DNA from: a virus
Lineage: Duplodnaviria > Heunggongvirae > Uroviricota > Caudoviricetes
Reading direction: 5' to 3' (one strand)
Virus record (IMG/VR): IMGVR_UViG_3300015214_000024
Coordinates: 233,787-297,786 of that record
DNA length: 64,000 nucleotides
In this document: positions 56,365 to 56,480 of the stretch, in pieces
Layout: each line of letters begins with the position of its first letter
Numbering within the stretch: position 1 is the stretch's first letter
Position numbers and translations under genes: made by a program
Notes under the pieces: generated by a model
What the model saw: only the letters and a program-made list of their open reading frames with translations
What the model was told of the DNA's origin: nothing
The model's database searches: none

Positions 56365-56480
56365 TGGTGCGGCCGGTAGGGATCGAACCTACAAACCGGG
56401 GAACATTACACGAAATGTATCAACCCGGGGCTGTTCAAACAAGTTTGACAGTCGTGTCTGCCTTATTTCACCACGGCCGC
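56365..56480 (-). ncRNA. Leu-type tRNA-like RNA with no anticodon loop and enlarged variable arm
   Basis: GCGGCCG/CGGCCGC-A-CCA; D arm GTG-AAATAAGGCAGA-CAC; T arm GTAGG-TTCGATC-CCTAC; own promoter. Confidence 0.8.

What the first reader, a model, noticed from the sequence alone, without database searches (positions are those of the whole stretch)
56365..56480. Chargeable-looking tRNA with no anticodon loop, directly upstream of a GNAT and a 2H phosphoesterase
Seen: perfect 7-bp acceptor, A73, encoded CCA, Leu-type D arm, canonical T arm and its own promoter. The anticodon arm is instead an extended hairpin CTGT-CAAAC-TT-GTTTG-A-ACAG with no 7-nt loop, and the variable arm is ~38 nt. Established: bacterial LeuRS largely ignores the anticodon. 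Inference: retention of every elbow and acceptor element argues for selection rather than decay. Possible roles are a decoy for tRNA-targeting toxins, an EF-Tu or stringent-response modulator, or an aminoacyl donor for non-ribosomal chemistry. The GNAT gene starts 22 nt downstream.
Basis: partly seen in the sequence, partly recalled or inferred. Interest (0 to 1): 0.78.

Follow-up and report, generated by a model that had tools for sequence, protein, structure and literature searches.

The report
Anticodon-less leucine-tRNA mimic in phage
A 455-kb uncultured phage and all nine relatives I could find carry a strongly conserved RNA gene with the frame of a leucine tRNA but a closed hairpin where the anticodon loop should be. 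It cannot read codons, its job is unknown, and it resembles the never-explained tRNA-like stable RNAs of phages T5 and T4.

Summary
On the minus strand at 56365-56480 lies a 116-nt tRNA-shaped gene with a 7-bp acceptor stem, A73, a Leu-type D arm and a canonical T arm. It has no 7-nt anticodon loop and carries a 33-nt extra hairpin.

It is not a decayed tRNA. Nine distinct orthologues from other metagenomes have the same architecture at the same place, just upstream of a GNAT gene. They are 75-99% identical, while third codon positions next door are 39-68% identical. Nine base pairs show compensatory changes.

The tip of the anticodon-arm hairpin varies in length and sequence. The extra arm has an invariant UCGUGU loop. 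No excision gives a usable anticodon, so it is not an intron-bearing tRNA.

All published E. coli LeuRS identity elements are present and invariant. The phage also encodes a 421-aa LeuRS without an editing domain. Charging is plausible but untested.

- The encoded CCA is not conserved.
- The GNAT is an acetyl-CoA type of unknown substrate.
- The "2H phosphoesterase" call is weak.

The nearest known things are T5 RNA1 and T4 RNAC. This scan has noted similar anticodon-less tRNA-Leu mimics in other phage genomes. I rate it a new variant of a known but unexplained kind.

The parts
56491..56519 (-). Sigma-70-like promoter: -35 TTGACT (56519-56514), 17-nt spacer, -10 TATATT (56496-56491). G1 of the RNA lies 10 nt after the -10 hexamer.
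   Evidence: One search gives 10 of 12 matches. The block AATAAATATCATATATT is conserved in all relatives. TTGACA or TCGACA at 17 nt is visible in L005, L009 and L011. The block is unique in the genome.
56365..56480 (-). The whole tRNA-Leu-like RNA, 116 nt including the encoded CCA.
   Evidence: The covariance model R1 scores 112-137 bits in all nine orthologues.
56474..56480 (-). Acceptor stem, 5' strand (nt 1-7, GCGGCCG). It pairs with nt 106-112 (56369-56375).
   Evidence: Seven pairs, all kept. One pair is C-G in six sequences and U-G in three.
56454..56471 (-). D arm (nt 10-27): 3-bp stem GUG/CAC and a loop carrying A14, A15, G18G19 and the GGCAGA block, as in class II tRNA-Leu.
   Evidence: Stem and most of the loop are invariant. 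It is closest to the phage's tRNA-Leu D arms.
56431..56451 (-). Hairpin 1 in the anticodon-arm position (nt 30-50): CUGU/ACAG, a bulged A, CAAA/UUUG, and an apical CUUG. There is no 7-nt loop and no U33.
   Evidence: The stem sequence is nearly invariant. The apical part varies in length and sequence among relatives (the 13-nt segment between CUGU and ACAG here, up to 15 nt). There is one compensatory change and one C-G to U-G change.
56396..56428 (-). Hairpin 2 in the variable-arm position (nt 53-85): basal stem CCGGG/CCCGG, an asymmetric internal loop starting U(U/A)G, and an upper stem of 5-7 bp.
   Evidence: Five of 6 upper-stem pairs and 2 of 5 basal pairs change on both sides.
56408..56413 (-). 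Invariant apical hexaloop UCGUGU of hairpin 2 (nt 68-73). It is a perfect Watson-Crick complement of the invariant ACACGA at nt 24-29 (56452-56457).
   Evidence: Invariant columns. The complementarity is read directly. It cannot be tested by covariation because neither side varies.
56376..56392 (-). T arm (nt 89-105): GUAGG-UUCGAUC-CCUAC.
   Evidence: One pair flips A-U to U-A in 4 of 9 sequences. The loop UUCGA is invariant.
56365..56368 (-). Discriminator A73 (56368) and encoded CCA (56365-56367).
   Evidence: A73 is invariant. The tail reads CCA here and in L013, and CUA or CAA in the other relatives.
55804..56343 (-). GNAT acetyltransferase gene (179 aa), starting 21 nt after the RNA. Its ribosome-binding site (GGA) lies inside that 21-nt spacer, about 8 nt after the RNA's 3' end. 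No promoter-like or terminator-like site lies between the RNA and this gene.
   Evidence: Pfam Acetyltransf_1, E 3.5e-8. Acetyl-CoA motif RGKGLA. Only generic GNAT fold matches. It follows the RNA in all nine relatives. Promoter and terminator scan.
54926..55795 (-). 289-aa protein. The N-terminal part is unknown. The C-terminal domain (about residues 170-289) has two invariant HxT motifs and may be a small 2H phosphoesterase.
   Evidence: No Pfam or NCBIfam hit. phrog_36523 of unknown function. HVT at 199-201 and HIT at 250-252 are invariant. Poor model, pLDDT 51. Weak fold matches to 2H enzymes, Z 4.4 and lower. The domain stands alone in phages SCTP-2, Phosso, RsoM2USA and Atu_ph07.

Best explanation
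This is a functional, non-decoding RNA derived from a class II tRNA-Leu. The tRNA frame is kept, and both the anticodon arm and the variable arm have been rebuilt into conserved hairpins.

Shown:
- It is under strong purifying selection on both sequence and structure.
- It has no anticodon loop in any of the nine orthologues.
- It sits behind its own promoter as the first element of the GNAT transcription unit.

Inferred:
- The frame makes the cell's tRNA machinery cut and finish it. RNase P, or transcription initiation itself, would set the 5' end. Trimming after A73 and the CCA-adding enzyme would set the 3' end.
- This yields a stable L-shaped RNA and at the same time frees the GNAT mRNA.
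- Because every known bacterial LeuRS determinant is intact, it is probably recognised, and perhaps leucylated, by the host LeuRS or by the phage's own 421-aa LeuRS.
- It acts off the ribosome, through the two rebuilt arms and the acceptor end, as a binding partner for a protein or an RNA.

My odds: a functional gene rather than decay, 0.9; non-decoding, 0.9; excised and stable as a small RNA, 0.65; leucylated in vivo, 0.35; works together with the adjacent GNAT, 0.35.
For: - Nine distinct orthologues share the same architecture and position.
- 97.4% of cells are paired, with 9 doubly changed pairs, against 0 of 500 shuffles and about 40% paired in slid controls. RNAalifold independently finds the acceptor stem, D stem, hairpin 1, the upper stem of hairpin 2 and the T stem.
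- RNA identity is 0.75-0.99, against 0.39-0.68 at third codon positions of the adjacent gene.
- The tip of hairpin 1 varies in length and sequence. The candidate 'UUGAUAC' loop in hairpin 2 reads A33 in five relatives and would change amino-acid identity among them.
- The next-best hits of the element's model in the genome are the phage's tRNA-Leu genes, at 37-49 bits.
- The Leu identity set from PMC9976931 is present and invariant. The same review reports that E. coli tRNA-Leu lacking both the anticodon and variable arms is still charged.
- The phage encodes a LeuRS without the CP1 editing and C-terminal domains. Its best match among solved structures is Mycoplasma mobile LeuRS, 3ziu.
- There is a promoter 10 nt upstream and no promoter-like or terminator-like site before the GNAT gene.
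- Cultured-phage precedents exist: T5 RNA1, annotated 'tRNA-like stable RNA with unknown functions', has a Leu-type D arm and a long insert. T4 RNAC and RNAD are expressed and of unknown function (PMC9697503).
Against: - There are no expression, end-mapping or charging data.
- The D loop has one more nucleotide before G18G19 than the phage's tRNA-Leu genes, and three more in L014. This could impair LeuRS recognition.
- CCA is not encoded in most relatives.
- All orthologues come from one narrow clade, so the conserved adjacency to the GNAT may be inherited synteny and not a functional link.
- The GNAT gives only generic fold matches.
- The invariant hexaloop's complementarity to nt 24-29 suggests an alternative fold that would break the D stem. 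The L-shape is therefore not certain.
Confidence: 0.55

Rival explanations
1. It is a cis-acting processing mark, like the t-elements of plant mitochondria. The tRNA shape exists only so that RNase P and RNase Z cut the transcript and define the 5' end of the GNAT mRNA, and the excised piece has no job of its own.
For: The element lies between the promoter and the GNAT ribosome-binding site, with no terminator-like or second promoter-like site. t-elements work this way: they are CCA-tailed but not aminoacylated (PMC1920247; PMC11658184). The non-conserved CCA fits an RNase Z substrate.
Against: A cutting mark needs only the acceptor/T minihelix and the elbow. Here A73, the acceptor-stem sequence, the stem sequence of hairpin 1 and the hexaloop of hairpin 2 are all invariant while neighbouring stems covary freely. 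With a promoter only 10 nt upstream, there is almost nothing to cut off at the 5' side.
Confidence: 0.2
2. It is a decoy or sponge for a tRNA-binding factor: a host defence nuclease or toxin that recognises class II tRNAs or the acceptor end, or LeuRS or EF-Tu. This is one of the first reader's roles.
For: The complete Leu frame with a disabled decoding function is what a harmless bait would look like. Phage tRNAs are known counter-measures to tRNA-targeting immunity (abstract of PMC12409363).
Against: Known anticodon nucleases cut the anticodon loop, which this RNA lacks. No defence or anti-defence gene was recognised next to it. The idea does not explain the conserved hexaloop.
Confidence: 0.1
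3. It is a translational operator by molecular mimicry, thrS-style. A tRNA-binding protein (the GNAT, or the phage LeuRS) binds this tRNA look-alike in the leader and blocks the ribosome-binding site that begins about 8 nt downstream.
For: The spacing to the GNAT ribosome-binding site is tight and conserved. The genome is rich in translation-linked control elements according to earlier notes of this scan, which I did not check.
Against: There is no evidence that the GNAT binds tRNA. A tRNA-shaped leader should be cut off by RNase P or RNase Z, which would uncouple operator and gene.
Confidence: 0.07
4. It is an intron-bearing or insert-bearing precursor of a decoding tRNA, like the 'enigmatic introns' of Lak megaphages or the inserts in other tRNAs of this genome.
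For: Several tRNAs of this genome, and of phages SCTP-2 and Atu_ph07, carry inserts after position 37 with an intact anticodon (PMC6784885). ARAGORN with introns allowed forces a call of Glu(ttc) with a 31-nt intron.
Against: No contiguous excision from hairpin 1 leaves a loop with U33. The tip of that hairpin varies in length and sequence. The 'UUGAUAC' in hairpin 2 has A33 in five relatives and would read as Ile, Leu, Arg or Tyr in different relatives. No orthologue lacks the inserts. There is no T-arm-like mini-cloverleaf of the kind seen in the other class.
Confidence: 0.04
5. It is a decaying tRNA-Leu pseudogene.
For: Default ARAGORN misses it and the Rfam score is marginal.
Against: Conservation far exceeds that of neighbouring synonymous sites, there are compensatory changes, and the promoter is conserved.
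Confidence: 0.02

Closest known systems
Phage T5 RNA1 (rna1, NC_005859 30501-30644), annotated 'tRNA-like stable RNA with unknown functions'; also T5 RNA2 and RNA3
   Same: It is phage-encoded and has a tRNA frame with a Leu-type D arm (GGAAUUGGUAGAC), a canonical T arm, and a long structured insert where the anticodon arm should be. Its function is unknown.
   Different: There is no detectable homology in the inserts; the element's model scores only 19.8 bits on it. T5 RNA1 lies inside a tRNA cluster, not in front of a GNAT gene. I did not check its discriminator base or its identity elements.
Phage T4 species 1 and species 2 RNAs (rnaC, rnaD)
   Same: They are small stable phage RNAs next to tRNA genes. 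rnaC has a tRNA-like T arm and 3' part. They are expressed, and their function is still unknown (PMC9697503).
   Different: The element's model does not hit either of them; in T4 it hits only tRNA-Leu. They have no Leu-type D arm. An unannotated 136-nt element next to the rnaC homologue in Kanagawavirus phages is closer: 78% identity over nt 7-64 and 30 bits.
Class II tRNA-Leu (the phage's own genes; E. coli tRNA-Leu)
   Same: Shared features are the 7/5 acceptor/T branch, the 3-bp D stem, G18G19, A20a, U8:A14, A15-U48, C2-G71 and A73. The 5' anticodon-stem bases GACUG match the phage's tRNA-Leu(CAA).
   Different: There is no anticodon loop. The variable arm is 33 nt, with an internal loop and an invariant hexaloop. 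The D loop has one extra nucleotide.
Plant mitochondrial t-elements
   Same: They are tRNA-derived structures at the ends of mRNAs that are cut by RNase P and RNase Z and receive a CCA tail (PMC1920247; PMC11658184).
   Different: t-elements are not aminoacylated. I know of no report that they keep a full identity set or conserved extra arms (my own knowledge). Here sequence conservation extends well beyond what processing needs.
'Enigmatic' tRNA introns of Lak megaphages, and the inserts in jumbo-phage tRNAs
   Same: They are over-long tRNA genes in very large phages (PMC6784885).
   Different: Those keep an intact anticodon with the insert after position 37, and relatives without the insert exist. 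This RNA has no anticodon in any relative.
Engineered 'tRNA scaffold' for expressing recombinant RNA (Ponchon and Dardel 2007; from my own knowledge, not checked here)
   Same: An RNA of interest replaces the anticodon stem-loop, and the tRNA frame supplies processing and nuclease resistance.
   Different: It is man-made. The comparison bears on how this RNA might work, not on what family it belongs to.

Membership tests
Canonical tRNA (Rfam RF00005) | 7-bp acceptor stem, 5-bp T stem with a UUCRA loop, D arm with GG | tested here: met
Canonical tRNA (Rfam RF00005) | 5-bp anticodon stem with a 7-nt loop, U33 and a purine at position 37 | tested here: not met
   Hairpin 1 is 4 bp, a bulged A and 4 bp with a tetraloop. 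The tip varies among relatives and none has U33.
Canonical tRNA (Rfam RF00005) | Reaches the family's gathering score and is called by a tRNA finder | tested here: inconclusive
   32.5 bits against a gathering score of 29, but only in the sensitive local scan, with the middle skipped. Not listed in the whole-window scan. Not called by default ARAGORN.
Bacterial tRNA-Leu (LeuRS substrate) | Identity set: A73, A15-U48, G18G19, A20a, U8:A14, intact D/T-loop contacts, and C2-G71 against SerRS | tested here: met
   All are present and invariant in the nine sequences. The set is taken from PMC9976931. Caveat: one extra nucleotide lies before G18.
Bacterial tRNA-Leu (LeuRS substrate) | A leucine anticodon that decodes | tested here: not met
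   CAA (UAA in L014) is present but base-paired inside the helix with UUG.
Bacterial tRNA-Leu (LeuRS substrate) | Actual aminoacylation with leucine | not testable with these tools
   Needs an acid-gel or periodate assay, or in vitro charging.
Intron-bearing tRNA of megaphages | Recognisable anticodon loop interrupted by an insert, and insert-free relatives | tested here: not met
   Contrast with the Atu_ph07 and SCTP-2 tRNAs.
Phage tRNA-like stable RNAs (T5 RNA1, T4 RNAC) | Phage gene with a tRNA frame and a large non-anticodon insert | tested here: met
Phage tRNA-like stable RNAs (T5 RNA1, T4 RNAC) | Sequence or structural homology beyond the tRNA frame | tested here: inconclusive
   T5 RNA1 scores 19.8 bits. 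T4 rnaC and rnaD are not hit. The Kanagawavirus element shows 78% identity over 58 nt, E 0.03.
Phage tRNA-like stable RNAs (T5 RNA1, T4 RNAC) | Accumulates as a stable small RNA in infection | not testable with these tools
   The phage is uncultured and no transcript data were available.
t-element-type processing signal | tRNA-like structure abutting an mRNA end | tested here: met
   21 nt upstream of the GNAT start codon in all relatives.
tmRNA | tRNA-like domain plus a tag reading frame | tested here: not met
   ARAGORN finds no tmRNA. The D arm is complete and there is no internal reading frame.
GNAT acetyltransferase (gene 55804-56343) | GNAT profile match and the acetyl-CoA motif (Q/R)xxGxG/A | tested here: met
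   Pfam PF00583, E 3.5e-8. RGKGLA is conserved, with R, the second G and A invariant. Model pLDDT 82.8 with GNAT fold matches.
tRNA-acetylating GNAT toxins (TacT, AtaT, ItaT) | Specific similarity to these toxins and a paired antitoxin gene | tested here: inconclusive
   TacT1, AtaT and GmvT appear among many generic GNAT matches at TM about 0.4. No antitoxin-like neighbour was recognised.
2H phosphoesterase (gene 54926-55795, C-terminal domain) | Two HxT/S motifs | tested here: met
   H199-V-T201 and H250-I-T252 are invariant in six sequences.
2H phosphoesterase (gene 54926-55795, C-terminal domain) | 2H fold or a profile match | tested here: inconclusive
   No Pfam, NCBIfam or PDB sequence match. 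The model has pLDDT 51. The top fold match is CNPase at Z 4.4; rotavirus VP3 phosphodiesterase and a phage phosphodiesterase score Z 2.5-3.1.

The most novel reading that the evidence does not exclude
The RNA is a dedicated non-ribosomal leucine acceptor. It would be charged by the phage's own half-size, editing-less LeuRS (or by the host enzyme). Because it cannot enter decoding, its aminoacyl end would be used off the ribosome. One possibility is N-acetylation by the adjacent GNAT to make a peptidyl-tRNA look-alike that engages or titrates host translation-quality-control or defence factors. That would give a first function to the old class of phage tRNA-like stable RNAs (T5 RNA1, T4 RNAC).
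Probability: 0.1. Interest if true: 0.85.

Novelty: new variant of a known kind. Interest (0 to 1): 0.56.

Why it matters
Phage-encoded tRNA-like stable RNAs have long been annotated in T4 and T5, and their function is still listed as unknown. This family adds comparative information on such an RNA:
- a full set of leucine identity elements, kept invariant;
- a deliberately closed anticodon arm;
- a second arm with an invariant loop;
- a fixed position at the head of a GNAT operon;
- a phage genome that also carries its own stripped-down LeuRS.

These features turn "function unknown" into specific, cheap experiments on charging, processing, partner pull-down and loop mutants. They also warn annotators that tRNA finders silently miss, or mis-call as intron-bearing, a selected class of non-decoding tRNA mimics in large phages.

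Tried and rejected
- **Intron readings.** I tried every contiguous 6-nt excision from the 13-nt stretch of hairpin 1. I also tried reading hairpin 2 as an anticodon arm (UUGAUAC, anticodon GAU) with a 16-nt intron. Both fail on U33 and on inconsistency among relatives. ARAGORN's forced Glu(ttc) call is unconvincing.
- **Paralogues in the genome.** None found by blastn-short or by the model. The hexaloop hairpin and the hairpin-1 motif are unique in the genome.
- **More relatives by pattern.** Two IMG/VR scans found nothing. One metagenome scan gave 57 hits, all chance matches according to the model. Two earlier IMG/VR scans, one with the GNAT protein and one with the first 27 nt of the RNA, also found nothing.
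- **Whole records behind the relatives' contigs.** These are not held, so I could not ask whether the relatives also carry the small LeuRS or normal tRNA-Leu orthologues.
- **Antisense target search.** I looked for ACACGAA, the complement of the invariant loop, near phage start codons. There are 39 sites in the genome and none is convincing.
- **Leu/Phe-tRNA protein transferase (PF03588).** Absent from the phage.
- **Cultured jumbo phages with the HxT domain (SCTP-2, Phosso, RsoM2USA, Atu_ph07).** They have no orthologue of this RNA, only normal tRNA-Leu genes and a different class of insert-bearing tRNAs.
- **Other tRNA-like RNA families.** Rfam families such as tmRNA or Y RNA did not match at any threshold tried.
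- **Kink-turn and T-loop readings** of the internal loop and the hexaloop. I rejected both by eye: there are no tandem G-A pairs, and U stands where A58 would be.
- **Structure of the 289-aa protein.** The model is too poor (pLDDT 51) for a firm fold call.
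Full report
**What is there.** The window lies in a 455,147-bp virus record that CheckV rates complete. It carries about 75 tRNA-like matches and several aminoacyl-tRNA synthetase genes.

The finding is on the minus strand at 56365-56480. Counting from the RNA's 5' end, the parts are:
- acceptor stem GCGGCCG (nt 1-7) paired with CGGCCGC (nt 106-112);
- U8 G9;
- D arm GUG-AAAUAAGGCAGA-CAC (nt 10-27);
- hairpin 1 (nt 30-50): CUGU-CAAA-CUUG-UUUG-A-ACAG;
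- hairpin 2 (nt 53-85): CCGGG-UUGAU-ACAUU-UCGUGU-AAUGU-UC-CCCGG;
- UUU;
- T arm GUAGG-UUCGAUC-CCUAC (nt 89-105);
- A73 (nt 113) and CCA.

Default ARAGORN does not call it. The whole-window Rfam scan does not list it. A sensitive local scan gives tRNA at 32.5 bits (gathering score 29), aligning only the acceptor, D and T arms and skipping 37 nt in the middle. The only change is that a 2-nt UU loop cannot form, so the tip of hairpin 1 is a CUUG tetraloop or the whole 13 nt is open.

**Is it more than chance or decay?** The adjacent GNAT protein has nine homologues at 58-98% identity in public assemblies. I fetched their contigs. Every one has a 170-195-nt gap in front of the GNAT gene, and every gap holds the same RNA, giving nine distinct sequences of 115-121 nt.

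RNAalifold on a plain MAFFT alignment recovers the acceptor stem, D stem, hairpin 1, the upper stem of hairpin 2 and the T stem. I built a covariance model (R1) and counted pairs on its alignment of the nine sequences:
- 97.4% of cells are paired;
- 9 pairs change on both sides, 17 cells in all;
- no shuffle out of 500 reaches these values;
- sliding the partners by 1-3 columns drops pairing to 34-43%.

Five of the six upper-stem pairs of hairpin 2 covary, as do two basal pairs, one T-stem pair and one pair of hairpin 1. This alignment was fitted to the model, which favours the structure. However, the covarying pairs are also visible in the raw sequences.

Pairwise identity of the RNA is 0.75-0.99. 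Third codon positions of the neighbouring GNAT gene are 0.39-0.68 identical. This is a selected gene, not a decaying one.

**What kind of tRNA frame?** In the phage's own genome, the next-best matches of R1 are five tRNA-Leu genes at 37-49 bits (with identities). The D arm and the bases GACUG that follow it match the phage's tRNA-Leu(CAA).

The review PMC9976931 lists the E. coli leucine identity elements:
- A73;
- the A15-U48 pair;
- G18G19 and A20a;
- U8:A14;
- the D/T-loop contacts G18:U55, G19-C56 and U54:A58;
- C2-G71, which acts against SerRS.

The review also reports that tRNA-Leu variants lacking both the anticodon arm and the variable arm are still charged. All of these positions are present here and invariant across the nine sequences. 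One deviation is an extra nucleotide between A15 and G18, or three extra in L014. "Chargeable-looking" is thus a fair description, but charging itself is untested.

**Why it is not a decoding tRNA or an intron-bearing precursor.** The stem of hairpin 1 is nearly invariant (CUGUCAAA...UUUGAACAG). Its tip differs in both length and sequence among relatives: CUUG, UUUGAU, AAUUGA, CUUUA, CAUUAU and AUAU. No 7-nt loop with U33 exists, and no contiguous excision creates one.

The bases CAA (UAA in L014) sit where a leucine anticodon would be, but they are paired with UUG inside the helix. This probably reflects descent from tRNA-Leu(CAA).

The other candidate is UUGAUAC after the basal stem of hairpin 2. 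It has A at position 33 in five relatives, and it would read as Ile, Leu, Arg or Tyr depending on the relative. All nine relatives carry both rebuilt arms.

By contrast, other over-long tRNAs keep an intact anticodon with the insert after position 37, and the insert often contains a T-arm-like hairpin. This is true in this genome and in the cultured phages Atu_ph07 and SCTP-2. They resemble the "enigmatic introns" of Lak megaphages (PMC6784885). That is a different class from the RNA studied here.

**The rebuilt arms.** In hairpin 2 the stems covary freely, but the apical hexaloop UCGUGU is invariant and is closed by U-A or U-G. This loop is a perfect six-base complement of the invariant ACACGA at nt 24-29, which comprises the last D-loop base (A24), the 3' strand of the D stem (nt 25-27) and the next two bases. 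I estimate the chance of such a match for one loop in a 116-nt RNA at about 2-3%. Because neither side varies, covariation cannot test it.

The pairing would compete with the D stem. An alternative local hairpin, GGCAG/CUGUC, which presents ACACGA as its loop, also appears in single-sequence folds. I report this as unexplained. It could be a tertiary contact, a conformational switch or a coincidence.

The hexaloop hairpin and the hairpin-1 motif occur nowhere else in the genome. A search for targets complementary to the loop near phage start codons found nothing convincing.

**Transcription context.** A sigma-70-like promoter (TTGACT, 17 nt, TATATT; 10 of 12 matches) ends 10 nt before G1. The -10 block is conserved in all relatives, and a TTGACA-like -35 is visible in those relatives whose gaps reach that far. 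The block is unique in the genome.

After A73 the relatives read CUA or CAA; only this phage and a near-identical contig encode CCA. The GNAT ribosome-binding site follows within about 15 nt of the RNA's 3' end and the start codon within about 30 nt (21 nt in this phage). No promoter-like or terminator-like site lies in between. The RNA is therefore the first element of the GNAT transcript. Excising it like a tRNA would at the same time create the mRNA's 5' end.

**The neighbours.** The GNAT (179 aa) matches Pfam Acetyltransf_1. It has the acetyl-CoA motif RGKGLA, of which R, the second G and A are invariant. That makes it an acyl-CoA enzyme and does not fit an aminoacyl-tRNA-dependent transferase. 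Its model (pLDDT 82.8) matches many GNATs equally poorly: AAC(2')-Ia, SpeG, Mom, TacT1 and AtaT, all at TM about 0.4. The substrate is open.

The 289-aa protein has no Pfam or NCBIfam match. Its C-terminal 120 residues match a PHROG of unknown function and carry two invariant HxT motifs. The model is poor (pLDDT 51). The best fold match is CNPase at Z 4.4; rotavirus VP3 phosphodiesterase and a phage phosphodiesterase rank lower. A PDB profile search finds nothing. "2H phosphoesterase" is possible but not established.

That domain occurs alone, in unrelated contexts, in phages SCTP-2, Phosso, RsoM2USA and Atu_ph07. In relative L009 the gene is replaced by a second GNAT-like gene. Only the RNA-GNAT pair is constant, and all relatives belong to one narrow clade. 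The pairing may therefore be inherited synteny.

**A relevant gene elsewhere in the genome.** The phage encodes a 421-aa LeuRS at genome position 196112-197377, among its tRNA-Leu, Pro and Asn genes. It matches the bacterial LeuRS profile at positions 25-221, 412-428, 484-569 and 604-749 only. It therefore lacks the CP1 editing domain and the C-terminal domain. Its best solved relative is Mycoplasma mobile LeuRS, 3ziu, E 1.7e-89. The phage has no Leu/Phe-tRNA protein transferase.

**Comparison with what is known.**
- A blastn search of GenBank phages put T4-like Kanagawavirus phages (PEi20, CIP9 and others) on top, at 78% identity over nt 7-64, E 0.03.
- The match falls in an unannotated gap next to the homologue of T4 rnaC. 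It is a 136-nt element with a Leu-type D arm, a T arm and an acceptor-like stem. R1 scores it at 30 bits, and ARAGORN finds nothing there.
- The element is almost identical among four such phages, so its fold cannot be tested by covariation.
- In T4 itself, R1 hits only tRNA-Leu, not rnaC or rnaD.
- T5 carries RNA1, annotated "tRNA-like stable RNA with unknown functions". It has a Leu-type D arm (GGAAUUGGUAGAC), the same GACUG continuation, a long insert and a T arm. R1 scores it at 19.8 bits.
- T4 RNAC and RNAD are expressed late and are still described as of unknown function (PMC9697503).
- Plant mitochondrial t-elements are the best-studied tRNA-derived processing marks. They are CCA-tailed but not charged (PMC11658184).
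- I found no paper describing this family, or any anticodon-less tRNA-Leu mimic linked to a GNAT.

**Earlier notes of this scan.** After I had reached the reading above, a look-up showed that this scan has noted anticodon-less tRNA-Leu look-alikes in several other phage genomes, and half-size LeuRS genes in huge phages. These are unchecked AI notes. The T5 RNA1 comparison came from one of them, and I then verified it. The T4-like element and the small LeuRS I had found independently beforehand.

**Verdict.** The RNA is best read as a non-decoding derivative of tRNA-Leu. The frame secures tRNA-type processing, stability and probably LeuRS recognition, while the two rebuilt arms carry the actual, still unknown, function. 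My odds for the sub-claims are given with the best explanation. The main rival is a pure processing mark for the GNAT mRNA. That rival does not explain the invariant identity elements, the invariant stem sequence of hairpin 1 or the invariant hexaloop. It is a new variant of an old, unexplained kind of phage RNA, and it is well suited to simple experiments.

Noticed in passing
Genome G000:C1:196112-197377 (+), outside the window; locus L088:213-1478: A 421-aa LeuRS lacking the CP1 editing domain and the C-terminal tRNA-binding domain. Its best solved relative is Mycoplasma mobile LeuRS (3ziu). It sits among tRNA-Leu, Pro and Asn genes.
   Followed up: partly
L072:1493-1628 (Edwardsiella phage PEi20, AP014714 about 74900-75035). 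The same element is in Klebsiella phage KLB31 and Enterobacter phages CIP9 and MY742.: An unannotated 136-nt tRNA-Leu-like element next to the rnaC homologue of T4-like Kanagawavirus phages. It shares GACACGACUG and CUUGUUUGAA with the RNA studied here. It also contains a perfect-looking anticodon arm, CCUGG-UUGGUAC-CCAGG. ARAGORN finds no tRNA there.
   Followed up: partly
L084:1030-1151 (Salicola phage SCTP-2, 298729-298850) and L085:1003-1124, minus strand (Agrobacterium phage Atu_ph07, 323902-324023): Unannotated 122-nt tRNA genes in cultured jumbo phages. The anticodon is intact (Asn GUU, Tyr GUA), and an insert of about 45 nt after position 37 contains a T-arm-like hairpin. They resemble the Lak megaphage introns and the 71-nt insert in this genome's tRNA-Leu(UAA) at 198495-198650.
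   Followed up: partly
Window 7705-7805 (+): A 100-nt tRNA-like gene. A TTATT/AATAA stem encloses about 36 nt in place of a 7-nt anticodon loop. ARAGORN calls it Leu(taa) only with introns allowed. It is missed by the whole-window Rfam scan but found by the genome search, at 39.4 bits.
   Followed up: no
Genome G000:C1:15281-15358 and 165512-165586: Two tRNAs with anticodon CUA (amber suppressors, labelled Pyl by ARAGORN), although the genes in this window read well in the standard code.
   Followed up: no
L009:2678-3205: In one relative the 289-aa gene after the GNAT is replaced by a 175-aa protein carrying its own GNAT-like motif (SHRGQSLAK). Only the RNA-GNAT pair is constant in the neighbourhood.
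   Followed up: partly
Window 2204-2268 (+) and 16948-17016 (+): Short tRNA matches (65 and 69 nt) above the Rfam gathering score that ARAGORN does not call.
   Followed up: no
Window 56447-56462 (-): The alternative local hairpin GGCAG-ACACGA-CUGUC inside the RNA gene was flagged as terminator-like. Its loop is the complement of the invariant UCGUGU loop of hairpin 2, so a kissing-loop conformer is possible on paper.
   Followed up: partly
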